From Flavimaricola sp. (lineage in GTDB: Bacteria; Pseudomonadota; Alphaproteobacteria; Rhodobacterales; Rhodobacteraceae): a DNA stretch of 64,000 bases. The notes beneath the pieces are model-generated. The model searched no databases. It saw only the letters and a list, made by a program, of their open reading frames with translations, and was not told where the DNA came from. Positions 17,677-31,223 of the stretch are shown one piece after another; within the stretch, counting starts at the first letter, position 1; each line of letters begins with the position of its first letter. The translations under genes were made by a program, and so were the position numbers. The stretch lies in contig JAQWWH010000065.1 of assembly GCA_029255105.1 (NCBI GenBank), positions 3,670-67,669 of the forward strand, read 5' to 3'.

Positions 17677-17684
17677 TATTGCGC

Positions 17685-18329: not shown

Positions 18330-18330
18330 A

Positions 18331-19281
18331 ATGAGTACGTTGCCGCAATGGGTGATCGCGATTGTCGGCTCTGTCTTTTCGGGTTTCGGGGATCCGGTGG
18401 TGGTTGAGTACAACGGCTATGCGGAAGGCGACTATGTCTATGTCGCCCCCGCCGCGACTGGCCGGATCGTCACGATCCAGGCCGAGGAAGGCACAACCGT
18501 CCAGGCCGGTCAGACCCTGTTCCAAAGCGACGACACCCACCAGACCGCCGCCCTGCGTTCGGCACGGGCGCAGGTTGCCGTCGCGCAGGCGAACCTTGAG
18601 AACCTCGAAACCGGCAGCCGGGCGGCCGAGATCGACGTGATCGTTGCATCGCTGGATCAGGCAAAATCGGATCAGCAGCTGGCCAGATCGACGCTTGAAC
18701 GGTCACGCCAACTTCTTGTCAGCGGCTCAATCTCGCAGGCCCGTGTCGATGCGGATACCGCCGCCCTTCAAAGCGCGGACGCCAAGGTGGCCCAGCTTCA
18801 GGCCCAGTTGCTAGTCGCGGAATTACCTGCCCGCAGTTCCCAAAGGATAGCGGCAGAAGCCACACTCGAGGCGGCGCAGGCGCTGTATGATGACGCCCGC
18901 TCTGCGCTTGAGGATCGGGCGGTCGAAGCCCCCGTAAGTGGTCGGATCGAAAGGGTATTTTACGAAGAGGGCGAAGTTGCCGTAGCCGGCGCGCCGGTGG
19001 TGTCGATCCTTCCCCATGACAGCCTTATCGCCCTGTTCTTTGTACCGGAAAGCGATCGGGCCAGCATCGCACTTGGTGCGGCCTTTGATGTGGACTGCAA
19101 CGGATGCCCCGACGATATTGTCGCGCATCTGACCCGCATTGCGGCGACACCCCAGTACACGCCTCCCATCATCTACAGCAGCGAAGAACGCGCCCGCCTT
19201 GTGTTTCGGGCCGAAGCGACAATCGACAATGCCGGTGAATTGTTACCCGGCCAACCCCTTACGCTGAGACCGCAAGAGTGA
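18331..19281 (+). CDS. HlyD-family membrane-fusion/secretion protein
   Basis: 316 aa. N-terminal TM, lipoyl-like hairpin GRIVTIQAEEGTTVQAGQTLFQSDD, long coiled-coil, then a beta-barrel region. Confidence 0.8.
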   Translation: MSTLPQWVIAIVGSVFSGFGDPVVVEYNGYAEGDYVYVAPAATGRIVTIQAEEGTTVQAGQTLFQSDDTHQTAALRSARAQVAVAQANLENLETGSRAAEIDVIVASLDQAKSDQQLARSTLERSRQLLVSGSISQARVDADTAALQSADAKVAQLQAQLLVAELPARSSQRIAAEATLEAAQALYDDARSALEDRAVEAPVSGRIERVFYEEGEVAVAGAPVVSILPHDSLIALFFVPESDRASIALGAAFDVDCNGCPDDIVAHLTRIAATPQYTPPIIYSSEERARLVFRAEATIDNAGELLPGQPLTLRPQE

Positions 19282-20216
19282 CTGCTGAACTGGCCATTTC
19301 TGTCAGGGGCCTGACCAAGATCTTTGATGGGCGAAAGGTCGTCGACGACTTTGACATGGAGGTTCCAAAGGGGGCCATCTACGGCTTTCTCGGGCCGAAC
19401 GGATCGGGCAAGACGACCACCATCCGCATGATGTGCGGCCTGCTGACCCCTGATGCCGGCGCGGGGCATTGCCTCGGCTTCGACATCCTTTCCGAACAGA
19501 ACAGCATCAAGGAAAACGTCGGCTACATGACGCAGCGGTTTTCGCTTTATGCGGACCTAACCATTCGCGAGAACCTCGACTTTATCGCCCGGATGTACCG
19601 GCTCAACTCTCGCAAGTCCCGGGTCAGCGAGGCGCTGGTCAATCTGGGGCTAGCGGATCGTGCGAACCAGTTGGCCGGAACACTTTCGGGCGGCTGGAAG
19701 CAGCGGTTGGCTCTTGCCGCATGTATGATCCACAAGCCTGCCTTGCTGCTGCTGGACGAACCGACCGCAGGTGTCGATCCGAAGGCACGCCGCGACTTCT
19801 GGGACGAGATCCGCAAGCTGTCTGCCCAAGGCGTGACCGTACTGGTATCGACCCACTACATGGACGAAGCAGTCCAGTGCGATTTCATCGCTTATATCGC
19901 CTATGGCAAAAAGCTGATTGCCGGACCGGCCAGTGACATCCCCGGCATGATCGGCCTGCACACATGGCGTGTCACCGGTCCCGCGCTGGCCGATCTTGAG
20001 CTGGCGTTGCGCAAGGACCCCGATGTCGGACAGGTGGCGCGGTTTGGGGCGGTTTTGCACCTCTCGGGCACGGACAAGGCCAAGCTTCTGGCCCTCGCCA
20101 CCCGCTACAACGCTGAGGGCGTCTACACCTGGGTCCATAAAGAAGCAGAGTTGGAAGAGGCGTTCATCTACCTGATGACCGGCGTCGAAGACAACTTCGT
20201 CAGCACCAAGTCATGA
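19278..20216 (+). CDS. ABC transporter ATP-binding protein (ABC-2 type)
   Basis: Walker A GPNGSGKTT, signature LSGGWKQRLALA, Walker B LLLLDEPTAGVD. Confidence 0.9.
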   Translation: MTAELAISVRGLTKIFDGRKVVDDFDMEVPKGAIYGFLGPNGSGKTTTIRMMCGLLTPDAGAGHCLGFDILSEQNSIKENVGYMTQRFSLYADLTIRENLDFIARMYRLNSRKSRVSEALVNLGLADRANQLAGTLSGGWKQRLALAACMIHKPALLLLDEPTAGVDPKARRDFWDEIRKLSAQGVTVLVSTHYMDEAVQCDFIAYIAYGKKLIAGPASDIPGMIGLHTWRVTGPALADLELALRKDPDVGQVARFGAVLHLSGTDKAKLLALATRYNAEGVYTWVHKEAELEEAFIYLMTGVEDNFVSTKS

Positions 20217-21349
20217 GGTGGCGGTTCTCCCCTGCCCGTCTGTTCGCTGTTCTGAGCAAAGAGTTCGTTCAGATGCGTCGGGACAAGATCACATTCGTGA
20301 TGATGATCGGCGTCCCGATCATGCAGCTTTTGATATTTGGATACGCCATCAACTCTGACCCGCGCCACCTGCCGACACTGGTCGAGATGGCCGACGAGGG
20401 CCCGGTGACGCGGGCGATCCTGTCTGGGATGCAAAGCTCGACCTATTTTGACTTCCAAGGTATCGTGACCAGCCCCGAGGCTGGCGACAAGGCGCTGCGC
20501 GATGGGTCGGCGAACTTTGTCGTGGTGGTGCCGCCCAACTTCGAGCGGGACATCCTGCGCGGGCTGTCGCCCGAGATTTTGCTGTCTGCCGATGCCTCGG
20601 ATCCGACCGCTGTTGGCGGCGGGGCGGCGGCGATGGCCAGTATCATAAACACCGCTGTCACTCAGACCCTGACCGGCCCGTTGAGCTATGCCGCAGGCAC
20701 CCCTCCTCCGATCAGTGTCGTGATCCACCGGCAGTACAATCCCGAAGGCAACACCTCGATCAACATCGTGCCGGGGCTTTTGGGGGTCATCCTGTCCCTG
20801 ACCATGGTGATGATCACGGCCGTCGCCATCGTCCGGGAAACCGAAAAGGGCACGATGGAGGCCCTGATCGCGACCCCGGTGCGCCCGCTCGAAGTCATGC
20901 TGGGCAAGATCCTGCCCTATGTCCTTGTCGGCTACGTCCAGACAATCGTTTTTCTGATCGCCTCGCAGGTCCTATTTGGGGTCCCGTTCATCGGGTCGCG
21001 GCTTGCGTTCTTTGTAGGGTTCAACCTCTACATCGTCGTCAACCTGGCATTGGGGTTCCTGATTTCGACCGTCGCCAGAAGCCAGATGCAGGCGATGCAG
21101 ATTTCGTTCTTCACGCTTTTGCCGACGATCCTGCTGTCCGGGTTCATGTTCCCTTTCGCCGCCATGCCGGGATGGGCGCAGGCCATCGGCAGCGCGATCC
21201 CGGCGACGCATTTCCTGCGCCTCGTGCGCAAGGTGATGTTGAAGGGGGCTGATATCACTGACATCCTTGGGGATCTGACGAACATTTCCCTGATCATGCT
21301 GGTCATCGTGGCCGTCGCGCTAAAGCGGTATCGACAGACTTTGGATTAG
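20213..21349 (+). CDS. ABC-2 type transporter permease
   Basis: 378 aa. One N-terminal TM, a large loop, then 5 C-terminal TMs. Coupled to the ATPase by a 4-nt overlap. Confidence 0.85.
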   Translation: MRWRFSPARLFAVLSKEFVQMRRDKITFVMMIGVPIMQLLIFGYAINSDPRHLPTLVEMADEGPVTRAILSGMQSSTYFDFQGIVTSPEAGDKALRDGSANFVVVVPPNFERDILRGLSPEILLSADASDPTAVGGGAAAMASIINTAVTQTLTGPLSYAAGTPPPISVVIHRQYNPEGNTSINIVPGLLGVILSLTMVMITAVAIVRETEKGTMEALIATPVRPLEVMLGKILPYVLVGYVQTIVFLIASQVLFGVPFIGSRLAFFVGFNLYIVVNLALGFLISTVARSQMQAMQISFFTLLPTILLSGFMFPFAAMPGWAQAIGSAIPATHFLRLVRKVMLKGADITDILGDLTNISLIMLVIVAVALKRYRQTLD

Positions 21350-21622
21350 CCTTCTAGCGCGGGCCGCATCGCGTTGACTGACCATGGTGTTGCAGTCAGA
21401 TCGGGGGGGACCCGGGTCTGCAGGGCGTGGCCGTCAAAGCCGACCGGACAGCACGCAAAGACGATCAAGCGACGTTGGGCCGAAAGGTTCCGCACCGAAA
21501 CCGATGCCGACCATCATGGGTGAACCGGGTCGAGACCCACCCGATCGGCCCTCTGCGAAAGGCATTGACAACCCCTTTCAGCATGACATCGTGCTAGACA
21601 TGCCGAACCAACGTGAGAGCTC

Positions 21623-21907
21623 ATGACGCAAACTTATGATAAAATTGTGGAAATTGTCATCAAGACCTCCGATCTTGATCCTCTTTCCATCACTCCGGCC
21701 AGCCGTCTGGTGGAGGATCTTGGTTTGGACTCCGTCGACATGTTTGATCTGGTCTTCGCGCTGGAGCAAGAGTTCGACATTGATCTGCCGATTGAGGCCT
21801 GGGGCGAAGAGAGCGATGGGCAGGAACCGTTGCAGATGACCGACATCACCATGCAAAGCTTTGGCGCGCGGATCGAATTGCTCATATCCCAAAAAAGCGC
21901 GGCATAG
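21623..21907 (+). CDS. acyl carrier protein
   Basis: 94 aa with the phosphopantetheine site LGLDSVDMFDLVFALEQEF. Confidence 0.85.
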   Translation: MTQTYDKIVEIVIKTSDLDPLSITPASRLVEDLGLDSVDMFDLVFALEQEFDIDLPIEAWGEESDGQEPLQMTDITMQSFGARIELLISQKSAA

Positions 21908-21993
21908 ATGCCGCCCCGGCCAAGGATGCGTCTGGCACGCCCCCTGAGGTCGGCACGACCCACCTGCAACGCGACCCTGCCTGCGCACTCAGG

Positions 21994-23115
21994 GTGAGGC
22001 GAGATGTGGTTATCACGGGCGTCGGATTGCTGTCGGCCTGCGGATCAAACGAGGATGTCCATCTTGCAGCTCTTCTGGATGAAAAGCGACCGGTTGCGGA
22101 TGGCGTGTCCTTTGCGCCGTTCCACCTGGTCAAGGCCGCCCCGTTCGACGCCGAGGACTTTGTTCCGGGGCGAAGCGATCGGCGGCAAATGGAGCCCTGG
22201 CAGCTTTTGGGTGTTGCGGCTGCAAAACTTGCCCTCGACAGCGCCGGGATACCGCCCGGAGACGAACGAGACAGCCTTTGCCTGAACCTCGCCGCGAATG
22301 GCGGCGGACGCGAGCACGACATGGACCTGGCAGTCCTCGACGAACTTCTGGTCCGGGGGGACCCTCAGGCGGGGCTTGTCGAAAGTATGTCGAAACGTAT
22401 CCGCCCCTCCTTTTTGCTGGGCCAGTTGGCCAATCTGCTGGCGGGCAACATCGCCATCGTTTTGGGCGTCGGCGGCGGGGCGAGGACCTTCATGGGCGAG
22501 GAACACGCCGGGGTCGAGGCGCTTGAGGACGCGGTGTCCCGGATCGTGGCGGGCCAATCGGATCGCATCCTTGTCGGGGGCGTTCTGGATGCTGACCGGG
22601 CCGAGTTGATGTTTGCGCTGGCCACGGGCGGGCTGCTGCATGCCGGGACCATGCCCGCGGTATTCAACCCGGACCGCAACGGCCTTTGCCCCGGCAGCAT
22701 GGCCGCATTTGTGCTGGTCGAGGCCGAGGAGGTGGCGCGTGCGCGGGCTGTCCCGCCCTTGGCAAGGATCACCGGGATCAAAGCCGCCTGGACCGGAGGG
22801 GTCGACGGGCAGGACGCTTTGAGAGGGTGCATCTCTGCCCTGCCCCACGGCGGCGACGCCACCCTGATCCTTTCCGGGGCATCCGGTGCCCAACCTTCGA
22901 CCACCGAGGAATGGGCCGCGCTTGAAGGACGGTCAAAGGACGCCCGCATTCTGGCCACCGCTGACGTTGCAGGGCACGGTCTTGAGGCATCGTTTCCATT
23001 TGCAGTGGCTTTGGCCGCACTCAGCATTCAGGCCGGGGCGGCAGAGCGGGTTCTGACCACGACAGGCAGCGACCGCTGCGGTGTCGCCGCCGCTCTGCTA
23101 GAGGCCGCCCCATGA
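21994..23115 (+). CDS. beta-ketoacyl synthase-like protein without the catalytic Cys (chain-length-factor-like partner)
   Basis: 373 aa. KS N-terminus VVITGVGLLSACG. Where KS enzymes carry xACxSG, the sequence reads TFMGEEHAGVEAL. GTG start. 4-nt overlap with the next KS. Confidence 0.7.
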   Translation: MRRDVVITGVGLLSACGSNEDVHLAALLDEKRPVADGVSFAPFHLVKAAPFDAEDFVPGRSDRRQMEPWQLLGVAAAKLALDSAGIPPGDERDSLCLNLAANGGGREHDMDLAVLDELLVRGDPQAGLVESMSKRIRPSFLLGQLANLLAGNIAIVLGVGGGARTFMGEEHAGVEALEDAVSRIVAGQSDRILVGGVLDADRAELMFALATGGLLHAGTMPAVFNPDRNGLCPGSMAAFVLVEAEEVARARAVPPLARITGIKAAWTGGVDGQDALRGCISALPHGGDATLILSGASGAQPSTTEEWAALEGRSKDARILATADVAGHGLEASFPFAVALAALSIQAGAAERVLTTTGSDRCGVAAALLEAAP

Positions 23116-24374
23116 ACAGGCCGGACAACAGCAGCATTGCGGTGACAGGGATGGGAATGGTAACATCCCTTGGCCAGGGCATCGCGGCAAACTGGGCGGC
23201 GATGCTGGCCGGGCAATCGGGCGCGGCCCTGGTCCGACGCTTTGCAACCGACGGCCTGCGGACCCGATTTGCGGCAACGGTCGAAAGTATCTGCGACCCG
23301 ACCCTGCGGCCAACGGACCGGACCGAACATCTGGCCATGCTGGCGATGACAGAGGCGCTGGCCCAAAGCGGCCATGCCGCTGGCCCGCGTTTTCCCGGAA
23401 AGCTGATCGTGGGGGTCCCGCCGGTTCAGATGGAATGGCCCGACCGCATCGACATGGCGTCCCGTTGCGACGATGGGGACATCAACGATCGCGCCCTGAT
23501 CCGCGCTGCCGCGGATCAGCAGATGCGCCCGCTGTTCGCAAAGCTGCGCTTTGGCAAAACGGCCGAGCATTTGGCACGGCATCTGCGGCCCTTGGGAATG
23601 CCCGTCACCATCTCTACCGCCTGTTCCTCGGGGGCGAGCGCCATCCAGATCGGGGTCGAGACGATCCGGCGTGGCGACGCCGACGCCGCAATCGTCATAG
23701 GCGCGGACGCATCGGTGAGCCCCGAGATGTTGCTACGCTTTGGCCTGCTGTCCGCCTTGTCCCGCCGGAACGAGACGCCGGAAACCGCCTCGCGCCCGTT
23801 CGACAAAACCCGGGACGGGTTCGTTCCCGGAGAAGGCGCGGCCGCACTTGTGCTGGAGCGTGGGACCGTCGCGGCGCAGCGTGGTGCAAATATCCTTGGC
23901 TACATTCGGGGCGTCGGCGAAAGACTGGACGCCTACCACCGCGTTCGCCAACGCCCTGATGCCGGCCCCGTTGGCGAAGCGATGGCGGCCGCCATTCGGG
24001 ATGCTGGACTTGAGCCCGACGACATCGACTATGTCAGTGCGCATGGCACCTCGACCGGAGACAACGACCGGGTGGAAAGCCTGGGCCTGCACCACGTCTT
24101 TGGTCAAAGGACCAACAAACTGCCCGTGTCGTCGATAAAATCCATGATCGGCCACACCATGAGTGCGGCCGGAGCGATCGAGGCTGTAGCCTCCTTGCTG
24201 ATGATGCAGCATCAAACGCTGCTTCCGACCATCAACTTTGATACACCCGACCCCGATGCCCCGCTCGATGTTGTGCCAAACACCGCGCGCGCGGCTAAGG
24301 CCCACCATGTCCTCAGCAATTCGTTCGGGTTTGGAGGGCAGAATGTCTGTATTGTCTTGTCTGACACACCCTGA
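23112..24374 (+). CDS. beta-ketoacyl-ACP synthase, FabF/KAS-II type, catalytically complete
   Basis: 420 aa. Cys in TISTACSSGASAI, His in YVSAHGTSTGDND, His in IKSMIGHTMSAAGA. Confidence 0.9.
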   Translation: MNRPDNSSIAVTGMGMVTSLGQGIAANWAAMLAGQSGAALVRRFATDGLRTRFAATVESICDPTLRPTDRTEHLAMLAMTEALAQSGHAAGPRFPGKLIVGVPPVQMEWPDRIDMASRCDDGDINDRALIRAAADQQMRPLFAKLRFGKTAEHLARHLRPLGMPVTISTACSSGASAIQIGVETIRRGDADAAIVIGADASVSPEMLLRFGLLSALSRRNETPETASRPFDKTRDGFVPGEGAAALVLERGTVAAQRGANILGYIRGVGERLDAYHRVRQRPDAGPVGEAMAAAIRDAGLEPDDIDYVSAHGTSTGDNDRVESLGLHHVFGQRTNKLPVSSIKSMIGHTMSAAGAIEAVASLLMMQHQTLLPTINFDTPDPDAPLDVVPNTARAAKAHHVLSNSFGFGGQNVCIVLSDTP

Positions 24375-24413
24375 CACGCCCATCTGGGTAGAGTTCGGGG
24401 GATTTGCCCTGTG

Positions 24414-24461
24414 CAGAGGCCCGTCCAGAGGCCCGTCCGGTGGCTCGTCCAGAGGCCCGTC
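24414..24461. repeat. four tandem 12-bp units in the KS-to-PKS spacer
   Basis: CAGAGGCCCGTC at 24414, 24426 and 24450. The third unit (24438) is CGGTGGCTCGTC. Confidence 0.9.
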
Positions 24462-24499
24462 ACGGTATGTCACCAACAACAAGCAACAAAGGGGGCGGC

Positions 24500-25582
24500 A
24501 TGGCAGTATATCTCAATGAGATCGGAACCGGTGTTCCGGCCTATGACGTGCACGAAAGCTATCTGCGGATCGCGCCACGGTTTCTGAACTCCGAGGCTGA
24601 AAGCAAGACCTTTGCCAAGATGGCCCGCCGCTCTGGCATCTCGCATCGTTATTCAAGCCTTGAACCGGCCGACCCGACCACCTGGGGCAACCGCTACGAT
24701 GCCGAAGGGTTTTTCCGGCCGGGGGCCTTTCCGACGACCGGTCAACGGATGCAACGTTATTCGCAAGATGCCCCCCAACTGGTCGACCGCGCGATCGAGA
24801 ATCTGGCCCGTCGTCAGGGGCCCGACTGGAAGCGCGGCATCACCCATCTGGTGATCTGCAGTTGTACGGGGTTCGCGGCTCCCGGCCTAGACCACCACAT
24901 GATCACGCACCACCAGCTTAGCCCGACTGTCGAGAGGACGATGATCGGCTTTATGGGCTGCAATGCCGCCATGAACGGCTACAAGACCGCACACCACATC
25001 GTCCTTGCCGACCCAAAGGCGCGTGTTCTGGTCCTGAACGTAGAGCTTTGCGGCCTGCACTTTCAGGAATCTGCCCCGCTCACAACCGCCCTGATGTTCA
25101 TGTTGTTTGCCGACGGGGCCTCTGCCGCGCTGATCAGCGCAGACCCCAAAGGGTTTGCGCTTGATGCCTTTCGGTCTGACATGATCCCCGACAGCCGGGA
25201 CCACATCACCTGGGATATTGGCGACAACGGGTTTGATATGTGGCTGTCTGGACGGGTGCCCCGCGCCATCACCAAGAACCTGCCCGGTCATTTCAAGGTG
25301 CTGCAAGAGGCGGCACAGGGGCGCGCCATCGACCTTTGGGCGATACATCCCGGTGGGCGGACAATTCTGGACGCCGTCGAGGTGAGCCTGGGCCTTGAAC
25401 CCGCCGATCTTGCCACCTCGCGCGGGGTCCTGAACGACTTTGGCAACATGTCATCCGCAACCCTTCCCTTTGTCTTGCAACGCATGCTGTCCGCACCGCC
25501 CCAAGGGCGCACCGGCGTCTCCATCGGGTTTGGTCCGGGCATCAGCGTCGAAAGCATGGTGTTTCGCGAGGCTCAGCCATGA
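24500..25582 (+). CDS. type III polyketide synthase (chalcone/stilbene synthase superfamily)
   Basis: Catalytic Cys LVICSCTGFAAPG, His WAIHPGGRTILD, Asn FGNMSSATLPFVL. I chose the ATG at 24500 (MAVYLNEIG), which follows AAAGGGGG, over the track start at 24404. Confidence 0.9.
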   Translation: MAVYLNEIGTGVPAYDVHESYLRIAPRFLNSEAESKTFAKMARRSGISHRYSSLEPADPTTWGNRYDAEGFFRPGAFPTTGQRMQRYSQDAPQLVDRAIENLARRQGPDWKRGITHLVICSCTGFAAPGLDHHMITHHQLSPTVERTMIGFMGCNAAMNGYKTAHHIVLADPKARVLVLNVELCGLHFQESAPLTTALMFMLFADGASAALISADPKGFALDAFRSDMIPDSRDHITWDIGDNGFDMWLSGRVPRAITKNLPGHFKVLQEAAQGRAIDLWAIHPGGRTILDAVEVSLGLEPADLATSRGVLNDFGNMSSATLPFVLQRMLSAPPQGRTGVSIGFGPGISVESMVFREAQP

Positions 25583-26301
25583 CCGACGTCAAGCTCGTTC
25601 TGGCCGGCCGTGTGCATCGCGACGAATTGATGGATATCGAAGAGGTCTCCGACGCCGACCTCGCCCGGTGCCTGCGCGACCTGGAACGGGTCAACCTTGT
25701 CAGTCTTGGCTATAGGCCAACCCTACGCTGGCTGGACGATGTCGCCGCAGGCAAGGACCGGATTTCGCTCCTTGATGTTGGGTGTGGGCATGGCGACATG
25801 CTGCGACGGATAAAAGCCTGGGGCAAACGTCGCGGGATCGAGACCGACTTGCTGGGAATTGACCTGAACCCGTCGACCATACTGGCCGCAAAGGCCGCCA
25901 CAGATACCAAGGACGGCATCGCATTCGAGGTGCTCGATCTGTTTGACATACCCGCCGACAGATACCCGGATATCATCATCAGCTCATTGTTCGCGCACCA
26001 CCTCGACGATGCCGACCTTGTCCGTTTTGTAGGCTGGATGGAGCAGACCGCCCGCCTGGGCTGGTTCATCAACGATCTGCATAGACATCCCGTTTCGGCA
26101 TACGGGCTAAAGCTGATCTTTGCGATCTGGCCGGTGCACAGGTTCGTCCGCTACGACGGCCCTGTCTCGGTCTGGCGCGCCTTCAGCCGAGCCAATCTTG
26201 AGGCGGCGGTCCGCGCGGCGGGAGTGCCCCCTGGTGGGGTCAAGATTTCGTGGTGGTTCCCCTTTCGCTGGGGTGTCGGACGACGCAAAGCCGATGGTTG
26301 A
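25579..26301 (+). CDS. class I SAM-dependent methyltransferase
   Basis: 240 aa. Motif I LLDVGCGHGDM. 4-nt overlap with the PKS stop. Confidence 0.85.
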   Translation: MTDVKLVLAGRVHRDELMDIEEVSDADLARCLRDLERVNLVSLGYRPTLRWLDDVAAGKDRISLLDVGCGHGDMLRRIKAWGKRRGIETDLLGIDLNPSTILAAKAATDTKDGIAFEVLDLFDIPADRYPDIIISSLFAHHLDDADLVRFVGWMEQTARLGWFINDLHRHPVSAYGLKLIFAIWPVHRFVRYDGPVSVWRAFSRANLEAAVRAAGVPPGGVKISWWFPFRWGVGRRKADG

Positions 26302-27400
26302 CAGAACCGCAGAGGTCCTGGTCATCGGCGGCGGGCTGGCAGGTGCCGCGACGGCGGCGCATCTGGCTCGGGCCGGTCGATCGGTCGTCGTCTTGGAACG
26401 CGATGCCGAACCCACTCACAAAGTCTGTGGTGAGTTTCTGGGGCGCGCGGCCTGCCGGGAACTGGAAGGCCTCGGCGTCGATCTGGAGTCGCTCGGCGCA
26501 AGATGGATCGAGCATTGCACCCTGTTCTCGGGCGACAGATCGGCCCAGGCCCCCTTGCCCTTTCGTGCAGCGGGGCTGTCGCGCCGGACCCTTGACCCCG
26601 CTTTGCGCGACCATGCGGCGTGGGCGGGTGCCGACATCCGGCTGGGCGTCCGGTCAACGGCCGTCCGGGGCGGGCAGGTTGATCTTGCCAATGGCGAAAG
26701 TCTTTCGGCAAATGCGATTGTCATCGCGACAGGAAAACACGAAGTCCGGGGCCTTACCCGGCGCAGCGTCCTGAAAAGAAAGGATGCCAAGATCGGAATC
26801 AAAGAGCATCTCAGCCTGACCCCCAGTGCGATGGCAGACCTTGGCAACAGCGTTGAATTGCACTTTTTCGAAGGCGGCTATGCCGGGTTGATGCCAACCG
26901 GTGATGGGGTTGCCAATCTTAGCATCGCAATGGACCCCGCCGTCTGGCGGGCCCGCGAATTGACCCCCGCAACCTACCGCGACTGGCTGCAACGCTATGT
27001 CCCTTCCTTGCAGGATCGACTGACCGGGGCCCGGTCGCTTTTCCCCAAACCCCTCACCGTCAGCGCTGTCCCCTATGGCTACCGCCTGTGGAGCGCGCCC
27101 GACGACGAACCCAGCCTGTGGCGGGTGGGTGAGCAGGCCATCGTCACCCCTTCGCTGACCGGTGAAGGGATGTCACTTGCCCTTGGGTCGGCCCGGTGTC
27201 TGGGGGAATGCCTCCTGGCAGGCCGATCTCAGACCGAGTATCGCCAATCGCTGCGACGGCACTTCAATCGACAGATCCTTGCCGCCCGCAGTTTCGAAGC
27301 TCTCTTGGAAGGGAGTATGACCCGGGGAGGCATCATGCGACTGCTGGCCGTTCTGCCAAGTGCCCTGGGGGTTGCAGCGCGGCTGACCCGAAGTGCCTGA
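26294..27400 (+). CDS. FAD-dependent oxidoreductase / flavoprotein monooxygenase-like
   Basis: Dinucleotide fold VLVIGGGLAGAATAAHLARAGRSVVVLERD. I chose the ATG at 26294 (it overlaps the methyltransferase stop as ATGGTTGA) over the track start at 26120. Confidence 0.85.
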   Translation: MVDRTAEVLVIGGGLAGAATAAHLARAGRSVVVLERDAEPTHKVCGEFLGRAACRELEGLGVDLESLGARWIEHCTLFSGDRSAQAPLPFRAAGLSRRTLDPALRDHAAWAGADIRLGVRSTAVRGGQVDLANGESLSANAIVIATGKHEVRGLTRRSVLKRKDAKIGIKEHLSLTPSAMADLGNSVELHFFEGGYAGLMPTGDGVANLSIAMDPAVWRARELTPATYRDWLQRYVPSLQDRLTGARSLFPKPLTVSAVPYGYRLWSAPDDEPSLWRVGEQAIVTPSLTGEGMSLALGSARCLGECLLAGRSQTEYRQSLRRHFNRQILAARSFEALLEGSMTRGGIMRLLAVLPSALGVAARLTRSA

Positions 27401-27421
27401 CCTGCATCCATCGGACAAGTC

Positions 27422-28309
27422 CTAGCGGCGCAACTCTTTGGCAAGAAAATCATAAACCCGACGCACGCGGCGACTGGTCGTGACATCGCGATGCGCGACA
27501 AGCCAGATCGGAAAGGCCAGCGGTTCCAGATCGGGGAGGACACGGACCACGCCCGGTTCAGCGTCCCCGATATAGGCATCGAGAATACCAATCGCCGCAC
27601 CCTGTTTGACCAGTTCCCACATCACCAGATAGCTTTCTGTCAGCAGGGGAAAGTTGGCCTCGGTCAACCCAAGACCAAGGCTGTTCAACCCCTTCAGCAT
27701 CATTCCGGTGCGATCCATGTTGACAAAGTCCGCGTGGCGCAGGTCGAAGGGGGTTGAGGGGTGCCCAAGTTCGGCGAGGTAGTCGGGCGCGGCATATAAG
27801 ACCGCCTCTGCCATCCCGATCTTTTTGGCGACCAGATCGGGCTCGGTCGGGCGAAAGTTGCGAATGGCTATGTCGGCCTCGCGGCGCAGCAGATCGCTTG
27901 CGTGATTTGCGACCACGATCTCGACCTGGATGCCGGGCTCTTCGCGGCGCAGTTTCGCGACGATCGGTGGCAGCAGGACTGCGGCATATGTCTCGCTTGC
28001 TGAAATGCTGATCTTACCTTCCAGCGCTTGCGATTGGCCGAGGGCCGCCAACGATACGCGGCCAGCAGCCTCTCCCATTTCGCGTACATGTTCCAGCAAT
28101 TCCAACCCGCTGGGCGTCAGGGTCAACCCGCGCCCAACGCGTTCGAACAGAACGATCCCCAGTTCCTGTTCAAGCCCGTCAACCTGTCGGCCAAGAGTAG
28201 GCTGCGCCATCCCCAAGGCGCGGGCAGCGGCGGACAGCGATCCTTCCTCGGCCGTCACCAGAAACGCCCGCGCCTTGTTCCAGTCAAATTTCACTGCGCG
28301 CCAATCCAT
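27422..28309 (-). CDS. LysR family transcriptional regulator
   Basis: HTH AFLVTAEEGSLSAAARALGMAQPTLGRQVDGLEQELG. I chose the start at MDWRAVKF (28309); 28321 is also possible. The track start at 28435 would overlap the divergent gene. Confidence 0.85.
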   Translation of the reverse strand: MDWRAVKFDWNKARAFLVTAEEGSLSAAARALGMAQPTLGRQVDGLEQELGIVLFERVGRGLTLTPSGLELLEHVREMGEAAGRVSLAALGQSQALEGKISISASETYAAVLLPPIVAKLRREEPGIQVEIVVANHASDLLRREADIAIRNFRPTEPDLVAKKIGMAEAVLYAAPDYLAELGHPSTPFDLRHADFVNMDRTGMMLKGLNSLGLGLTEANFPLLTESYLVMWELVKQGAAIGILDAYIGDAEPGVVRVLPDLEPLAFPIWLVAHRDVTTSRRVRRVYDFLAKELRR

Positions 28310-28416
28310 GCGGATATGCATATCAAAATTAGAAAATTGGTCAATTCGCATAGGACGCGTCACAGCGTAGACCTGCCGCATCAACCGATCCCAATCCCGT
28401 ACAGAAAGGAACCAAG

Positions 28417-29133
28417 ATGACCGACCCGAATACATGGGATGCCACCGGAGCCCGCATGGCAGGTGCGCTATATCTTGCCATCGCAGTCTGCGGTGGCTTC
28501 AGCATTGCATATGTGCCTGCCCAGATCGTTGCCGCCGACGGGGCGACATCTGCGGCCAACCTCCTTGCCAATACGGGCCTGTTCCGGCTGGGCGTGCTGG
28601 CCGACTGCGCCGTGATCCTGTTCGAACTTGCCATCACGGTCATCCTTTACCAACTGTTCCGCGCCACGGGGCCCAGAATGGCGATGGTCGCCCTGATCTC
28701 GCGCCTCGGGATGATCGGTGTGATGGGGATCAACATTTTGCTCTGGGTGATGCCCTACGGCCTGTTGACTTCGACGACGCTAGATACGGCCACGCTACAC
28801 GCCCTTGTTCAATACAGTCTTGATGCGCATGCGATGGGCGTTTTCGTCTGGCAATTGTTCTTCGGGATGCATCTTCTTGCCCTCGGCTGGTTGGTCCTGA
28901 ACTCCGGCAATGTCCCAAACCTTTTGGGCTGGGGCCTGTTCATCGGGGCCTTTGGATACCTGGTCCAGGGGATCGTCGAACTGACCTACACCGATGTCGC
29001 CCTGCTTGACGCCGCCATCATCGGCCTGCTTGTCATCGTGTCGATCGCAGAAATAGGCTTTGGCCTCTGGCTCTTGATCAGAGGCGGGCGCATCCCTTCC
29101 AAAATTCTCACATCCACGGCCGCAAGGGCCTGA
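28417..29133 (+). CDS. DUF4386-like integral membrane protein
   Basis: 238 aa, about 6 TM. The N-terminus ARMAGALYLAIAVCGGFSIAYVP is typical of that family. The family assignment is from memory. Confidence 0.6.
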   Translation: MTDPNTWDATGARMAGALYLAIAVCGGFSIAYVPAQIVAADGATSAANLLANTGLFRLGVLADCAVILFELAITVILYQLFRATGPRMAMVALISRLGMIGVMGINILLWVMPYGLLTSTTLDTATLHALVQYSLDAHAMGVFVWQLFFGMHLLALGWLVLNSGNVPNLLGWGLFIGAFGYLVQGIVELTYTDVALLDAAIIGLLVIVSIAEIGFGLWLLIRGGRIPSKILTSTAARA

Positions 29134-29145
29134 AGGAGACTGCTC

Positions 29146-30216
29146 ATGCTTGCCTATACATACGCCCGCTACGGCGCGCCCGAGGTCCTGACCAAAGTCG
29201 AAGTCCCGACCCCAACGCCAAAACCCGGCGAAGTCCTGATCAAGGTCTTTGCCACGACCGTAAGTGCCGGTGACTGGCGGGCCCGAAGCCTGACTTTGCC
29301 AAGGGGCATGGGCCTGATTGGCCGGTTGGTGTTCGGTATAAGACGCCCCCGCAAACCGATCCTTGGGACAGAACTTTCCGGGGTCATCGAAAGCGTCGGT
29401 GCCGGGGTTGCGACCTACGAGCCCGGCGATGCGGTCATCGCATTTCCAGGGGCCGGTTTCGGCGCACATGCAGAATACATCGTGATGCCTGCGACCGGAA
29501 ACCTGGTTCCGAAACCGGACGCCATCAGCTTTGAAGAGGCCGCAGCCATCCCCTTCGGAGGGACGACAGCCTACGACTTTCTCGTCAACAAGGCCCCGCT
29601 GCATGCTGGTGAGAAGGTGCTGATCAACGGGGCCTCTGGGTCCGTCGGATCGGCCTGTATTCAGATCGCCCGGGCTTTGGGGGCCGACGTGACCGGGGTT
29701 TGCGGCAGCGCGAATGCACCGATGGTCATGGCCCTTGGGGCGGACCGGGTGATCGATTACAACCGTGTGGACTTTGAACACGAAGGCATCCGTTACGACA
29801 TGGTCGTCGACACCATCGGCAACGTACCTTTTGCCCGGGCCAACAAGGCCCTTCGGCCCGGCGGACGCATGGTTCTGATTGCCGGGAAAACGTCAGACAT
29901 GATCTTTGGAGGGCTGAAGGCCCGCCTGAAGGGAAAACGCTTGATCGGTGGGGTGGCCAAGGAAAGCCGCGCAGCCCTTGAAGCGGTCGTCACTTTGGCT
30001 GCCGAGGGTCGGTTCAAGCCGGTCATCGACAGTTGCTACCCCTTTGTCGAAATGCGGGCCGCGCATGGTCATGTCGACACCGGTCACAAAAAGGGGAACG
30101 TAGTCGTTCAGATTGACCAAGGCAGTCGGCAACAACACTCTTTTGGTGCCGTGGCCCGCGCCAAGTCAACGCGCCACACAGGCCTGCCCGGATCTGCTGC
30201 CGCCCTGATGGGGTAG
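29146..30216 (+). CDS. NAD(P)-dependent zinc-type alcohol dehydrogenase / quinone oxidoreductase (MDR superfamily)
   Basis: GEVLIKVFATTVSAGDW and the cofactor site INGASGSVGSACIQIARALGA. GAAGGAG RBS. Confidence 0.85.
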   Translation: MLAYTYARYGAPEVLTKVEVPTPTPKPGEVLIKVFATTVSAGDWRARSLTLPRGMGLIGRLVFGIRRPRKPILGTELSGVIESVGAGVATYEPGDAVIAFPGAGFGAHAEYIVMPATGNLVPKPDAISFEEAAAIPFGGTTAYDFLVNKAPLHAGEKVLINGASGSVGSACIQIARALGADVTGVCGSANAPMVMALGADRVIDYNRVDFEHEGIRYDMVVDTIGNVPFARANKALRPGGRMVLIAGKTSDMIFGGLKARLKGKRLIGGVAKESRAALEAVVTLAAEGRFKPVIDSCYPFVEMRAAHGHVDTGHKKGNVVVQIDQGSRQQHSFGAVARAKSTRHTGLPGSAAALMG

Positions 30217-30223
30217 CACCCTA

Positions 30224-31024
30224 TCAAAGCTTGATAAGCAGAGGGTTCACCCCATCCTCAAACCGGTAATTGGGGCGCGCCGCCACAAATTCGTCCGCGG
30301 CCGCCCTGCACCCGCCATAGTCATTATAGTCGTCCAACAGGATCTGCCCCTGCGGCGAAAGAAGCGGATCCAAAGCTTCAAGGCAATACTTGACCGGATC
30401 GTACCAATCGCAATCGATGTGGGCAAAGGCGATCGGGCCAGTGGTCACATGAGGCCAGGTTTCCTCGAACAGGCCCTTGTGCAGCATCACACGCTCCGGG
30501 CTGCAACCGACCCCATAACGTTCAAAGGTCTGGCACACCTGACCATACAGATCCTCGACATAGCCGTAGTAGGCGTCGCCGCCGATCCCCTTGCTTTGGC
30601 CTTGCGAGATGATCTTGTAACGCTCTTTGGACTTTGCATCGTCCTTTTGGGACGTCGGTGGCGGGATCATGCCAAAGACGTCAAAGCCATGAAACGGGCG
30701 GCCTGCCTCGGTGGCGGATTTCGCGATCAGGATGCCGGACCCGCCAAGTGCGACGCCGAATTCAACAAAGCCGCCCGGCACCTTTTCCCTATTCAGGTCG
30801 CGCAGCGCCGTTTCGAGGCGATAGATCTTCTTGTGAGAAAGGTAGGTCAGCCGGTCAGCCCTGACTTTCCGGGCAAGGTTGCTGATCAGGAGGCGTGAAC
30901 TGACAATTCTTTCAATATTGCCTTTGGATAACAGCATCCTGACCAAATCGCGCATCGGTTTTGTCCTTAATTTGGGCAGGCTGCATGAATGAAATCTCAG
31001 TGATCTTCGCTGAAATCCGACCAT
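30224..31024 (-). CDS. TylF/MycF-family class I O-methyltransferase
   Basis: GFVEFGVALGGSGILIA (SAM site) and HIDCDWYDPVKYCLEAL (metal/active-site region) are typical of macrocin-O-methyltransferase-like proteins. The start may be the internal MRDLVRML at 30955. Confidence 0.75.
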   Translation of the reverse strand: MVGFQRRSLRFHSCSLPKLRTKPMRDLVRMLLSKGNIERIVSSRLLISNLARKVRADRLTYLSHKKIYRLETALRDLNREKVPGGFVEFGVALGGSGILIAKSATEAGRPFHGFDVFGMIPPPTSQKDDAKSKERYKIISQGQSKGIGGDAYYGYVEDLYGQVCQTFERYGVGCSPERVMLHKGLFEETWPHVTTGPIAFAHIDCDWYDPVKYCLEALDPLLSPQGQILLDDYNDYGGCRAAADEFVAARPNYRFEDGVNPLLIKL

Positions 31025-31223
31025 GTGGCCAGTCGATAGATGTTTCGAGCTTCGATCAGGTCCTTCCCCGCTGGCGGCATATCCAACTTTTCTGAATTTG
31101 ATTCCTCGGGATATGTTCTATACCCTAAACGGTCGCCTTTGTCTTGTGTCGCCCACCCGAAGCTGAAACGTTCAGAATCGTGGTCTAGGGGCTAACGTTT
31201 TGGTGGGTTGGGACAATTTTGGC

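What the first reader, a model, noticed from the sequence alone, without database searches (positions are those of the whole stretch)
21623..27400. Type III PKS + methyltransferase + flavoprotein (srs-like) operon, preceded by its own ACP and a KS/CLF-like pair
Six tightly packed or overlapping same-strand genes make up the cluster:
- an ACP (LGLDSVD);
- a KS homologue that lacks the nucleophile Cys (reads FMGEEHAG at that position);
- a complete FabF-type KS (Cys/His/His present);
- a type III PKS with an intact Cys-His-Asn triad;
- a SAM methyltransferase;
- an FAD enzyme.

Established knowledge: the PKS-MT-flavoprotein trio mirrors Streptomyces griseus srsABC (alkylresorcinol to methylated alkylquinone phenolic lipids). 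Azotobacter ars and Myxococcus ftp show that type III PKSs can take starters from dedicated FAS or ACP systems.

Inference: the ACP plus KS/CLF-like heterodimer is a minimal type-II-style elongation module. It would build or deliver a special acyl-ACP starter directly to the type III PKS. No KR/DH/ER, acyltransferase or PPTase is encoded in the cluster, so the chain chemistry is open. I do not know the product of this arrangement in an alphaproteobacterium.
Basis: partly seen in the sequence, partly recalled or inferred. Interest (0 to 1): 0.7.

Follow-up and report, generated by a model that had tools for sequence, protein, structure and literature searches.

The report
Phenolic-lipid operon with borrowed fatty-acid elongase
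A marine Roseobacter-group bacterium carries a rare six-gene operon in which a common phenolic-lipid (alkylresorcinol-type) gene trio is joined to a carrier protein and a two-part chain-extending enzyme descended from the machinery that rhizobia use to build the very long fatty acid of their outer-membrane lipid A, so it probably makes an unusually long-tailed phenolic lipid that nobody has yet characterised.

Summary
Six co-directional, partly overlapping genes at 21623-27400 encode an ACP, a Cys-less ketosynthase (KS'), a complete FabF-type KS, a type III PKS, a SAM methyltransferase and an FAD enzyme.

- The PKS-MT-flavoprotein trio is not srs-type. SrsB is an ICMT-family enzyme, while this MT is a class I Rossmann enzyme. 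The MT and flavoprotein are homologous to those of a planctomycete MT-oxidoreductase-PKS operon laid out like the hidABC (hierridin/alkylresorcinol) operons.
[quoted passage not shown] All three proteins best match those NCBIfam models but score below the cutoffs, and the window has no FabZXL or LpxXL.
- Cys->Glu in KS' is a family-wide trait, not local decay.
- The module is co-inherited with the PKS in seven distinct loci with unrelated flanks. Both KS paralogues form a PKS-linked clade. Two relatives still keep a FabZ-like gene.
- It is rare: 2 of the 80 best species-level genome loci.

Most likely function: a dedicated elongase builds a long acyl-ACP starter for a tailored alkylresorcinol or alkylpyrone. 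The product is unknown. This is a new variant of a known kind, of moderate interest.

The parts
21350..21622 (+). 273-nt non-coding leader upstream of the ACP gene; presumed promoter region. The 80-aa ORF 21384-21626 inside it is probably not a gene.
   Evidence: No Pfam or NCBIfam hit. No homologue in any related locus, and GC3 is 0.58 against 0.64-0.81 for the other genes measured. The promoter scan is at chance level. No Rfam match.
21623..21907 (+). AcpXL-like acyl carrier protein, 94 aa. Phosphopantetheine attachment site Ser37 in LGLDSVD, with a C-terminal extension typical of AcpXL.
   Evidence: PP-binding E=9.8e-9. Best NCBIfam model is PRK06508 at 69 bits, below the cutoff of 83. Genuine acpXL-cluster ACPs score 171-174 on that model. 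32% identical to the Bosea and L007 AcpXL, aligned over the full length.
21994..23115 (+). KS', the non-catalytic FabF2XL-like ketosynthase homologue (CLF-like), 373 aa. Glu170 sits at the Cys position and Ser297 at the first-His position; the Lys is lost and His328 is kept.
   Evidence: Only the KS N-terminal domain is detected. PRK06519 scores 312.5 against a cutoff of 320. Alignment to FabF 4jrh. Catalytic columns across 20 family members. 43-45% identical to the KS' of acpXL clusters.
23112..24374 (+). Catalytic FabF1XL-like beta-ketoacyl-ACP synthase, 420 aa, with Cys171, His311, Lys343 and His348. Translationally coupled to KS' by an ATGA overlap.
   Evidence: Both KS domains detected. 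PRK06501 scores 535 against a cutoff of 629. Catalytic columns. Overlap.
24414..24461 (.). 12-bp x4 tandem repeat (CAGAGGCCCGTC) inside the 125-nt KS-PKS spacer. Function unknown. It produces the spurious N-terminal extension of the raw PKS ORF.
   Evidence: Tandem Repeats Finder score 75. The corresponding spacer in Maritimibacter is only about 55 nt.
24500..25582 (+). Type III polyketide synthase, 360 aa, with Cys154, His283 and Asn316. Nearest solved relatives are Ectocarpus PKS1 and M. tuberculosis PKS18.
   Evidence: Pfam. 100% match to the deposited Flavimaricola sp. MAG protein. PDB hits 4b0n at 1.2e-42 and 1ted at 2.9e-39. Residue numbers.
25579..26301 (+). Class I SAM-dependent methyltransferase, 240 aa, of the kind found in hid-like operons.
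   Evidence: Methyltransf_25/11/12 and no ICMT or PEMT domain. 31% identity, E=3e-21, to the MT of the Paludisphaera MT-oxidoreductase-PKS operon. All 28 plasmids that carry a homologue also carry a type III PKS hit.
26294..27400 (+). FAD-dependent oxidoreductase, 368 aa, of the kind found in hid-like operons. Geranylgeranyl-reductase / flavin-halogenase / PqsL fold, with invariant Cys45.
   Evidence: TIGR02032 scores 96.6 bits, below its cutoff. Full-length alignment to 3oz2. 28% identity, E=1e-13, to the Paludisphaera oxidoreductase. AF2 model with pLDDT 91.8. Foldseek results. Family motifs.

Best explanation
This is a six-gene biosynthetic operon for a long-chain phenolic lipid, made of two parts of different origin.

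Part 1 is the ACP, KS' and KS. It is a diverged paralogue of the AcpXL/FabF2XL/FabF1XL system that Hyphomicrobiales use to build the C26-C30 very-long-chain fatty acid of lipid A.
- The catalytic KS (Cys171/His311/His348) and the non-catalytic, Cys->Glu KS' probably act as a KS/CLF-like heterodimer (inferred).
- That pair would elongate an acyl chain held on the dedicated ACP by repeated malonyl condensations.
- The ketoreduction, dehydration and enoyl-reduction steps would be borrowed from housekeeping FAS II (inferred; two relatives still carry their own FabZ).

Part 2 is the PKS, MT and FAD enzyme. It is a trio of the same kind as the hidABC-type operons.
- The type III PKS would take the long acyl thioester as starter, most simply straight from the dedicated ACP (inferred by analogy with Azotobacter ArsA to ArsB/C and with CylI).
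- It would add malonyl-CoA units and cyclise to an alkylresorcinol, or less likely an alkylpyrone.
- The class I methyltransferase and the flavoenzyme would then methylate and most likely hydroxylate the ring.

Shown here: gene content, catalytic residues, homologies, co-inheritance and a single origin of the fusion.
Inferred: the heterodimer, chain length, direct ACP-to-PKS hand-off, the ring chemistry and the product.
For: - Gene set and motifs.
- Module origin: the best NCBIfam models are PRK06508, PRK06519 and PRK06501. Genuine acpXL-cluster proteins pass those models at 171-174, 537-605 and 737-746 bits.
- The Bosea and L007 homologues sit in ACP-FabZ-KS'-KS-(SDR)-ADH-lipid A acyltransferase clusters.
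- In 78 of the 80 best species-level loci the KS' sits in an acpXL-type neighbourhood. 76 have a FabZ hit and 62 also an LpxXL hit, under a 50%-coverage filter.
- Functional coupling to the PKS: the same ACP-KS'-KS-PKS-MT-FAD order occurs in the window and in Maritimibacter, L008 and L006. FabZ-containing versions occur in Paralimibaculum and L093, and L094 is a partial example. All have unrelated flanks.
- No locus has both a PKS and LpxXL.
- PKS-linked KS' and KS are each monophyletic (bootstrap 89 and 75), with broadly congruent trees. In the KS tree the FabZ-less subclade has bootstrap 98.
- The PKS tree groups the KS-linked PKSs together, and it correctly predicted linkage for P0008 and P0011.
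- KS/CLF-like pair: Cys->Glu in 20 of 20 KS', full Cys/His/Lys/His in 19 of 19 KS partners, and an ATGA overlap between the two genes.
- Hid-like trio: MT 31% identity, E=3e-21; flavoenzyme 28% identity, E=1e-13, to the planctomycete MT-oxidoreductase-PKS operon.
- Planctomycete and cyanobacterial operons of this layout make C15/C17 alkylresorcinols, and HidA methylates pentadecylresorcinol (PMC10896814 and PMC6836626). The hidC>hidA>hidB order is a described variant (PMC8086630).
- Type III PKSs are known to accept ACP-bound starters (PMC8086630).
Against: - No biochemical data exist for any member of this cluster type.
- The window encodes no KR, DH, ER, malonyl transferase or PPTase. Reductive elongation therefore depends on untested cross-talk with housekeeping FAS II, and most members have lost FabZ.
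- Chain length cannot be read from sequence.
- Direct homology to Cyanobium HidA and HidB was not tested. It was tested only against a planctomycete operon of the same layout, and that operon has not itself been characterised.
- The PKS's nearest solved relatives include a pyrone synthase (PKS18), so resorcinol versus pyrone is open.
- The flavoenzyme fold is shared by reductases, hydroxylases and halogenases at similar scores, and the planctomycete oxidoreductase has no demonstrated role (PMC10896814).
- Support for monophyly of the KS-linked PKSs is weak (40%).
- The trees are NJ trees on few taxa.
Confidence: 0.6

Rival explanations
1. One reading: an srsABC-type operon (alkylresorcinol converted to a methylated alkylquinone, as in Streptomyces griseus) preceded by a generic minimal type-II-style ACP and KS/CLF module.
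For: The trio has the same three functional classes: a type III PKS, a methyltransferase and a flavoprotein. srsABC alone makes tailored alkylresorcinols (PMC6669644).
Against: SrsB is an isoprenylcysteine carboxyl methyltransferase-family protein (PMC6669644). The window's MT has only class I Rossmann MT domains and is homologous to the MT of a hid-like planctomycete operon. The module is specifically AcpXL/FabF2XL/FabF1XL-derived, not generic.
Confidence: 0.1
2. [quoted passage not shown]
For: The best family matches are the acpXL-cluster models. The trio exists on its own in many Alphaproteobacteria.
Against: All three proteins score below the equivalog cutoffs that genuine members pass easily. 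There is no FabZXL or LpxXL anywhere in the 64-kb window. The linkage recurs in seven loci with different flanks, and the PKS-linked KS' and KS form their own clade. No locus combines a PKS with LpxXL.
Confidence: 0.05
3. The KS'/KS pair and ACP work as a type II PKS-like or partly reducing system. They would make an unsaturated, oxo- or hydroxy-substituted chain (for example a polyene or beta-functionalised starter) rather than a saturated very long fatty acyl chain, and the type III PKS would cap that chain with an aromatic ring.
For: It is a KS/CLF-like architecture with a non-catalytic partner. The window has no KR, DH or ER, and most members have lost FabZ. There are secondary matches to highly reducing type II KS families: the cispentacin AmcF model scores 233 bits for the KS, and the Iga ketosynthase 6kxd is a PDB hit for KS'. 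L093 carries an extra CMAS-family lipid methyltransferase.
Against: The closest relatives by a wide margin are fatty-acid elongation KSs of the acpXL cluster. The earliest-branching member in the KS tree retains FabZ. The ancestral system itself relies on housekeeping reductases.
Confidence: 0.15
4. The module has lost its function in this lineage: it is a decaying remnant of an acpXL cluster after loss of FabZXL, AdhA2XL and LpxXL. The PKS would use ordinary C14-C18 acyl-ACP or acyl-CoA, like HidC.
For: FabZ has been lost. The scores fall below the equivalog cutoffs. KS' lacks its Cys.
Against: The Cys->Glu change is ancestral and universal, not decay. All ORFs are intact, with conserved catalytic residues in the KS and Ser37 in the ACP, across loci that are only 45-69% identical. 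That pattern implies purifying selection. The genes are translationally coupled.
Confidence: 0.07

Closest known systems
hidABC-type alkylresorcinol operons (hierridin cluster of Cyanobium sp. LEGE 06113; MT-oxidoreductase-PKS operons of Planctomycetota)
   Same: A three-gene set of type III PKS, SAM-dependent MT and FAD-dependent oxidoreductase. The window's MT and flavoenzyme are homologous to those of a planctomycete operon with this layout (31% identity at E=3e-21 and 28% at E=1e-13). The PKS-MT-FAD order corresponds to the described hidC>hidA>hidB variant (PMC8086630).
   Different: The hid and planctomycete operons have no dedicated ACP or KS genes and use ordinary C14-C16 acyl starters. 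The PKS here is only about 38% identical to the planctomycete one. Direct comparison with Cyanobium HidA, HidB and HidC was not possible.
[quoted passage not shown]
   Same: An ACP with a C-terminal extension, a Cys->Glu KS' and a catalytic KS, in the same order and translationally coupled. Same best NCBIfam models. 32-34% (ACP), 40-45% (KS') and 50-53% (KS) identity.
   Different: All three proteins score below the equivalog cutoffs. The window has no FabZXL, AdhA2XL or LpxXL. The output is handed to a type III PKS instead of lipid A. The first-His position of KS' is Ser instead of Thr. The hosts are Rhodobacterales, not Hyphomicrobiales.
Azotobacter vinelandii arsABCD (from my own knowledge; Funa 2006 is cited in PMC8776678)
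   Same: A dedicated fatty acid synthase makes long (C22-C26) acyl chains that pass directly from its ACP to type III PKSs, giving alkylresorcinols and alkylpyrones. The logic is the same: a private FAS feeding a type III PKS.
   Different: ArsA and ArsD are large type I multidomain FASs with their own reductive domains. Here the module is three discrete type II proteins of a different evolutionary origin, with no reductive enzymes. ArsC is only about 29% identical to alphaproteobacterial PKSs of this kind (PMC8776678).
Myxococcus xanthus ftp cluster and cylindrocyclophane CylA/B to CylI (ftp from my own knowledge; Cyl from PMC8086630)
   Same: A stand-alone ACP presents the starter acyl chain to a type III PKS.
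   Different: Those systems load a pre-made fatty acid with an acyl-AMP ligase. The Cyl pathway additionally uses type I PKS modules. Neither has a KS/CLF-like elongating pair.
Streptomyces griseus srsABC
   Same: A type III PKS with a methyltransferase and a flavoprotein that tailor an alkylresorcinol.
   Different: SrsB belongs to the ICMT family (PMC6669644), which is unrelated to the class I MT found here. srsABC has no ACP or KS genes. The relationship of the flavoenzyme to SrsC was not tested.
Type II PKS KS-alpha / chain-length-factor heterodimers
   Same: A catalytic KS paired with an adjacent, co-evolving paralogue that lacks the nucleophilic Cys.
   Different: Canonical CLFs carry Gln at that position (my own knowledge); this family carries an invariant Glu. 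By sequence the pair is nested in FabF-type fatty acid KSs, not in aromatic type II PKSs.

Membership tests
hidABC-type alkylresorcinol operon | Type III PKS with an intact Cys-His-Asn triad | tested here: met
   Cys154, His283 and Asn316. Pfam Chal_sti_synt_N and _C.
hidABC-type alkylresorcinol operon | Adjacent SAM-dependent MT homologous to the MT of MT-oxidoreductase-PKS operons | tested here: met
   31% identity over 229 aa, E=3e-21, to the Paludisphaera borealis operon MT. All 28 plasmid-borne homologues occur in records that also carry a type III PKS hit. Not tested against Cyanobium HidA itself.
hidABC-type alkylresorcinol operon | Adjacent FAD-dependent oxidoreductase homologous to the one in those operons | tested here: met
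   28% identity over about 349 aa, E=1e-13, with shared KVCG, GGYxGL and TGEGM stretches. Not tested against HidB itself.
hidABC-type alkylresorcinol operon | Product is a methylated and hydroxylated 5-alkylresorcinol | not testable with these tools
   Requires expression and LC-MS.
srsABC operon | SrsB-type ICMT-family methyltransferase | tested here: not met
   The window's MT matches only class I Rossmann MT families and has no ICMT or PEMT domain. The SrsB homologue is described as an isoprenylcysteine carboxyl methyltransferase (PMC6669644).
srsABC operon | SrsC-type flavoprotein monooxygenase | not tested
acpXL-lpxXL lipid A VLCFA cluster | ACP, KS' and KS reach the NCBIfam equivalog cutoffs (PRK06508 >= 83, PRK06519 >= 320, PRK06501 >= 629 bits) | tested here: not met
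   The window scores 69, 312.5 and 535. Genuine cluster members score 171-174, 537-605 and 737-746.
acpXL-lpxXL lipid A VLCFA cluster | Adjacent FabZXL dehydratase and LpxXL lipid A acyltransferase | tested here: not met
   No FabZXL or LpxXL hit anywhere in the 64-kb window. 76 of the 78 acpXL-type loci have a FabZXL hit and 62 also an LpxXL hit.
KS/CLF-type heterodimeric ketosynthase | Catalytic KS plus an adjacent paralogue lacking the nucleophile Cys, the two co-evolving | tested here: met
   Cys->Glu in 20 of 20 KS'. Cys/His/Lys/His in 19 of 19 KS. ATGA overlap. Broadly congruent subtrees.
KS/CLF-type heterodimeric ketosynthase | Gln at the former Cys position (the canonical type II PKS CLF feature) | tested here: not met
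   Glu170 here, and Glu is invariant across the family.
KS/CLF-type heterodimeric ketosynthase | A physical heterodimer | not testable with these tools
   Only single-chain structure prediction was available.
Azotobacter ars-type FAS-to-type-III-PKS system | Type I multidomain FAS (ArsA/ArsD) that supplies the starter | tested here: not met
   The module consists of discrete 94-, 373- and 420-aa proteins.
Azotobacter ars-type FAS-to-type-III-PKS system | Direct transfer of the acyl chain from the ACP to the type III PKS | not testable with these tools
   Requires in vitro assays with acyl-ACP and acyl-CoA.

The most novel reading that the evidence does not exclude
[quoted passage not shown] In marine Rhodobacterales it would now produce C26-C30-tailed, possibly omega-1-functionalised, methylated alkylresorcinols or alkylquinones. 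That would be a previously unseen class of very-long-chain bacterial phenolic lipid. These lipids might serve as membrane-spanning outer-membrane stabilisers, taking the place of VLCFA-lipid A in lineages that lack it. As a corollary, rhizobial FabF2XL would be a chain-length-factor-like, non-condensing subunit, and its Glu residue and pocket would set the unusual C26-C30 length.
Probability: 0.3. Interest if true: 0.65.

Novelty: new variant of a known kind. Interest (0 to 1): 0.5.

Why it matters
**A new way of supplying the starter.** Dedicated starter supply decides what a type III PKS makes. The only well-studied bacterial case of a private FAS feeding a type III PKS is the type I ArsA/ArsD system of Azotobacter cysts. 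This cluster reaches the same logic by a different route, using a three-protein type II module recruited from lipid A biosynthesis. It predicts unusually long-tailed phenolic lipids in marine Roseobacter-group bacteria.

**A tractable test system.** The cluster is about 5.8 kb. It could be used to test whether a type III PKS takes acyl-ACP directly, and how a Cys-less (Glu) KS partner controls chain length.

**Relevance to rhizobia.** The second question also bears on how rhizobia make the symbiosis-relevant C28 lipid A fatty acid. The papers I could read describe both fabF-XL genes simply as 3-oxoacyl-ACP synthase II or 'fatty acid elongation proteins'.

**Annotation.** The result corrects the tempting 'srs-like' label for the widespread alphaproteobacterial PKS-MT-FAD trio. 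By homology it belongs with the hid-like operons.

Tried and rejected
- **Promoter and terminator scan of 21200-27700:** counts were at shuffle level, so it says nothing about operon boundaries.
- **Rfam scan of the cluster and its spacers:** no match at E<=0.1.
- **The 80-aa ORF 21384-21626 as a seventh gene:** rejected. It has no family hit, no homologue in related loci and a lower GC3 than the other genes.
- **The upstream TetR-HlyD-ABC-ABC2 genes as part of the cluster:** not supported, because they are absent from all related loci.
- **The convergent LysR (27422-28435) as the cluster regulator:** not supported. It is not conserved in relatives, and it is divergent from DUF4386 and a Zn-ADH instead.
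- **Flavoenzyme as a canonical flavin-dependent halogenase:** the top Foldseek hits were halogenases. I rejected the assignment because the WxWxIP Trp motif is absent in 35 of 36 family members.
- **Deciding reductase versus hydroxylase from the fold:** not possible. Both classes match at TM 0.7-0.8.
- **Deinococcus PKS-MT-FAD trio as an orthologue:** the MT is weakly homologous, but the flavoprotein is unrelated (E=0.08).
- **Reading Haag et al. 2011 (JBC) to see whether the Cys-less nature of FabF2XL was already noted:** the paper is not held.
- **Literature searches for the combination** ('type III polyketide synthase' with acpXL; acpXL with 'chain length factor'; type III PKS with Roseobacter or Alphaproteobacteria): nothing relevant was returned.
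- **A PPTase, FAS II or acyl-activating gene elsewhere in the window:** none found.

Full report
**1. What is in the sequence**

The + strand between 21623 and 27400 carries six genes (ORF list).

| Gene | Coordinates | Size | Main evidence (Pfam, unless stated) |
|---|---|---|---|
| ACP | 21623-21907 | 94 aa | PP-binding, E=9.8e-9 |
| KS' | 21994-23115 | 373 aa | KS N-terminal domain only, E=1.8e-18 |
| KS | 23112-24374 | 420 aa | complete KS, both domains |
| Type III PKS | 24500-25582 | 360 aa | Chal_sti_synt_N and _C |
| MT | 25579-26301 | 240 aa | class I SAM methyltransferase |
| FAD enzyme | 26294-27400 | 368 aa | DAO / FAD_binding_3 |

- The PKS start at 24500 is the one used in the deposited annotation. 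A 360-aa protein from a Flavimaricola sp. MAG matches it 100%.
- The longer raw ORF from 24404 translates a 12-bp x4 tandem repeat that lies in the KS-PKS spacer.
They are ACP Ser37; KS Cys171/His311/Lys343/His348; and PKS Cys154/His283/Asn316.
- In KS' the nucleophile position is Glu170, the second E of FMGEEHAG, which aligns with the C of FabF ISTACTTG.
- KS'/KS and PKS/MT overlap by ATGA, and MT/FAD overlap by 8 nt.

**2. Surroundings**

- Directly upstream on the same strand are TetR, HlyD-family adaptor, ABC ATPase and ABC-2 permease genes (17679-21349). They are followed by a 273-nt gap.
- Downstream a LysR gene converges on the operon. That LysR is divergent from DUF4386 and Zn-ADH genes.
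- None of these neighbours recurs in related loci, so I do not count them as parts of the cluster.
- The rest of the window holds no PPTase, FAS II or acyl-activating gene.
- Promoter and terminator scans were at chance level. No Rfam family matches.

**3. Origin of the ACP/KS'/KS module**

- In NCBIfam the three proteins best match PRK06508, PRK06519 and PRK06501. Each scores just below the curated cutoff: 69 against 83, 312.5 against 320, and 535 against 629.
- A homologue search with KS' led to Bosea, Methylobacterium and Microvirga proteins at 40-45% identity.
- In Bosea (L005) and L007 these proteins sit in ACP(93 aa)-FabZ-KS'-KS-(SDR)-Zn-ADH-lipid A acyltransferase clusters. [quoted passage not shown]
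- As a control, the Bosea and L007 proteins pass the same three models at 171-174, 537-605 and 737-746 bits.
- So the module is a diverged paralogue of AcpXL/FabF2XL/FabF1XL. It is not an orthologue.

**4. The Cys-less KS is an old, conserved feature**

- In a joint alignment of 20 KS' and 19 KS sequences from both genomic contexts, KS' has Glu at the Cys position in 20 of 20.
- KS' has Ser (PKS-linked) or Thr (acpXL-type) at the first-His position. It has lost the Lys and keeps the second His in 19 of 20.
- The partner KS keeps Cys/His/Lys/His in 19 of 19.
- Together with the translational coupling and broadly congruent subtrees, this is the pattern of a catalytic/non-catalytic heterodimer of the KS/CLF kind. 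The difference is Glu in place of the canonical Gln.
- The physical heterodimer is inferred, not shown.

**5.

- The order ACP-KS'-KS-PKS-MT-FAD recurs with unrelated flanks in Maritimibacter sp. (L001/L010, PKS 77% identical), L008 and L006.
- Paralimibaculum aggregatum (L009/L014) has ACP-FabZ-KS'-KS-PKS-MT, after which the contig ends.
- L093 has a CMAS-family MT followed by ACP-FabZ-KS'-KS-PKS-MT-FAD, followed in turn by an integrase and an IS1595 transposase.
- L094 begins inside what is probably KS'.
- Roseisalinus, Sabulicella and a Falsirhodobacter plasmid carry only PKS-MT-FAD. The trio is therefore the widespread core and the module is an add-on.
- I scanned one genome per species (GTDB) with a KS' profile and scored the neighbours of the 80 best loci.
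  - 78 loci are acpXL-type, and all are Hyphomicrobiales or unclassified MAGs.
  - 76 of those 78 have a FabZ hit, and 62 also have an LpxXL hit.
  - 2 loci are PKS-linked.
  - None has both a PKS and LpxXL.
- In an NJ tree the PKS-linked KS' and KS are each monophyletic (bootstrap 89 and 75) and sister to the acpXL clade.
- In the KS subtree the FabZ-retaining Paralimibaculum branches first, and the FabZ-less subclade has bootstrap 98. The branching order inside the KS' subtree differs.
- The PKS tree places the KS-linked PKSs together, but support is weak (40%).
- That tree predicted that P0008 and P0011 would also be KS-linked. Both predictions were confirmed.
- The fusion therefore looks like a single event followed by co-inheritance. 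FabZ was probably lost later within the clade.

**6. The trio belongs with the hid-like operons, not with srs**

- A 51-63%-identical srs operon is described as stilbene synthase, isoprenylcysteine carboxyl methyltransferase (SrsB) and monooxygenase (SrsC) (PMC6669644). The window's MT has only class I Rossmann domains.
- tblastn against annotated plasmids found homologues of this MT in 28 records, and each of those records also has a type III PKS hit.
- One is the planctomycete Paludisphaera borealis, with the MT-NAD(P)/FAD oxidoreductase-PKS order.
- The window's MT is 31% identical to that operon's MT (E=3e-21). The flavoenzyme is 28% identical over about 349 aa to its oxidoreductase (E=1e-13).
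- Operons with this layout occur for 58 of 96 planctomycete type III PKS genes, and their proteins are 48-55% identical to cyanobacterial HidA, HidB and HidC.
- The PKSs of such operons make pentadecyl- and heptadecylresorcinols. HidA methylates 5-pentadecylresorcinol. HidB is proposed to hydroxylate the ring, and the role of the planctomycete oxidoreductase is unresolved (PMC10896814 and PMC6836626).
- A hidC>hidA>hidB order is a known variant (PMC8086630).
- The Deinococcus radiodurans PKS-MT-FAD trio uses an unrelated flavoprotein (E=0.08).
- Caveat: I could not compare directly with Cyanobium HidA and HidB, and the Paludisphaera operon has not itself been characterised.

**7. The flavoenzyme**

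- It aligns over its full length to the archaeal prenyl reductase 3oz2. Its best NCBIfam match is the geranylgeranyl-reductase family, below the cutoff.
- An AlphaFold model built on 36 sequences is confident (pLDDT 91.8).
- Foldseek places it equally near three groups: phenol and pyrrole flavin halogenases (PltA, Bmp2, PltM, ChlB4), the monooxygenases PqsL and KMO, and 3oz2. All match at TM 0.7-0.8.
- The family lacks the WxWxIP halogenase motif. It has its own conserved KVCGEFLG, GGYAGL, TGKHELRG and GDQA..PSL.GDGM motifs, including an invariant Cys45.
- Ring hydroxylation is the most economical reading, given the homology to the oxidoreductase of hid-like operons. Reduction is not excluded.

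**8. Mechanism proposed**

- *Shown:* a conserved, co-inherited operon that joins an AcpXL-type elongase to a hid-like trio.
- *Inferred:* the steps below.
  1. KS'/KS elongate an acyl chain on the dedicated ACP, using malonyl-ACP and housekeeping FabG, FabZ and FabI.
  2. The type III PKS takes this long acyl thioester as its starter. ACP-bound starters are documented for several type III PKSs (PMC8086630).
  3. The PKS forms an alkylresorcinol, or possibly an alkylpyrone. Its nearest solved relatives are Ectocarpus PKS1 and the pyrone synthase PKS18.
  4. The MT and the flavoenzyme tailor the ring.
- Chain length, any omega-1 functionality and the final product are unknown.

**9. Novelty and score**

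- The principle of a private FAS feeding a type III PKS is known from Azotobacter arsABCD.
- ACP-presented starters are known from ftp and Cyl.
- The trio type and the acpXL cluster are each known separately.
- Their combination was not found in the literature I could search. It is rare in genomes: 2 of the 80 best species-level loci, plus a handful of metagenome contigs.
- I rate it a new variant of a known kind, with interest 0.5.
- It is real, coherent and experimentally tractable, and it comes with a specific, testable prediction of very long alkyl tails. It is not a new principle.

Noticed in passing
L005, L007 and 18 further loci from L011-L089 (KS' genes at about 10001-11130 in most loci): In every acpXL lipid A VLCFA cluster examined, the first KS gene (the fabF2XL position) has Glu in place of the catalytic Cys, Thr in place of the first His, and no Lys. 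The second KS is fully catalytic. The rhizobial VLCFA elongase therefore looks like a KS/CLF-type heterodimer. The open-access papers I could read describe both genes simply as 3-oxoacyl-ACP synthase II or 'fatty acid elongation proteins'.
   Followed up: partly
window 17679-21349: TetR, HlyD-family adaptor, ABC ATPase and ABC-2 permease genes form a tightly packed operon directly upstream on the same strand. It could export the lipid product, but it is absent from all related PKS loci, so the link is unsupported.
   Followed up: partly
window 24414-24461: A 12-bp x4 tandem repeat (CAGAGGCCCGTC) lies in the 125-nt KS-PKS spacer. It is absent from the much shorter Maritimibacter spacer. Its function is unknown; it could be a regulatory site or a slippage product.
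   Followed up: no
L093 4791-5639 and 12580-14405: One FabZ-containing version of the cluster is preceded by a CMAS-family (cyclopropane or mycolic-acid type) lipid methyltransferase. It is followed directly by a phage-type integrase and an IS1595 transposase. This suggests chain modification and horizontal mobility of the cluster.
   Followed up: no
window 26294-27400 (model m39df2cf8ac0f): The flavoenzyme's nearest solved structures are phenol and pyrrole flavin-dependent halogenases, including PltM, which halogenates phloroglucinol. The source of chlorination in hierridin C is reported as unknown, with no halogenase in that genome (PMC6836626). However, this family lacks the WxWxIP motif, so a halogenating role is speculative.
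   Followed up: partly
L092 4001-6960 (Deinococcus radiodurans plasmid): Deinococcus has a PKS - class I MT - FAD oxidoreductase trio in the same order. Its flavoprotein is not significantly similar to the one here (E=0.08), so it is a non-orthologous replacement within an otherwise parallel operon.
   Followed up: partly
window 21384-21626: An 80-aa Pro/Arg/Ser/Gly-rich ORF overlaps the ACP start by 4 nt. It has no family hit, no homologue in related loci, and a GC3 of 0.58 against 0.64-0.81 for the other genes measured. It is probably a spurious ORF in the leader.
   Followed up: yes
window 31200-34910 and 34992-37457: A 1236-aa protein combines an N-terminal sulfatase domain with C-terminal RTX calcium-binding repeats, which suggests a secreted sulfatase. 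It is followed by an 821-aa protein whose only recognised domain is a C-terminal LuxR/GerE HTH.
   Followed up: no
window 27422-31024: A LysR regulator is divergent from DUF4386 and Zn-dependent alcohol dehydrogenase genes. A convergent TylF-type (macrocin O-methyltransferase family) gene follows at 30224-31024 on the minus strand. This is a small neighbouring unit of unknown role, not conserved next to the PKS in relatives.
   Followed up: no
window 53925-56192 (-) and 37540-38931 (-): Two large ORFs (755 aa and 463 aa) have no Pfam match at E<=1e-5. The second overlaps a 539-aa ORF on the opposite strand (37585-39204), so it is unclear which of the two is the real gene.
   Followed up: no
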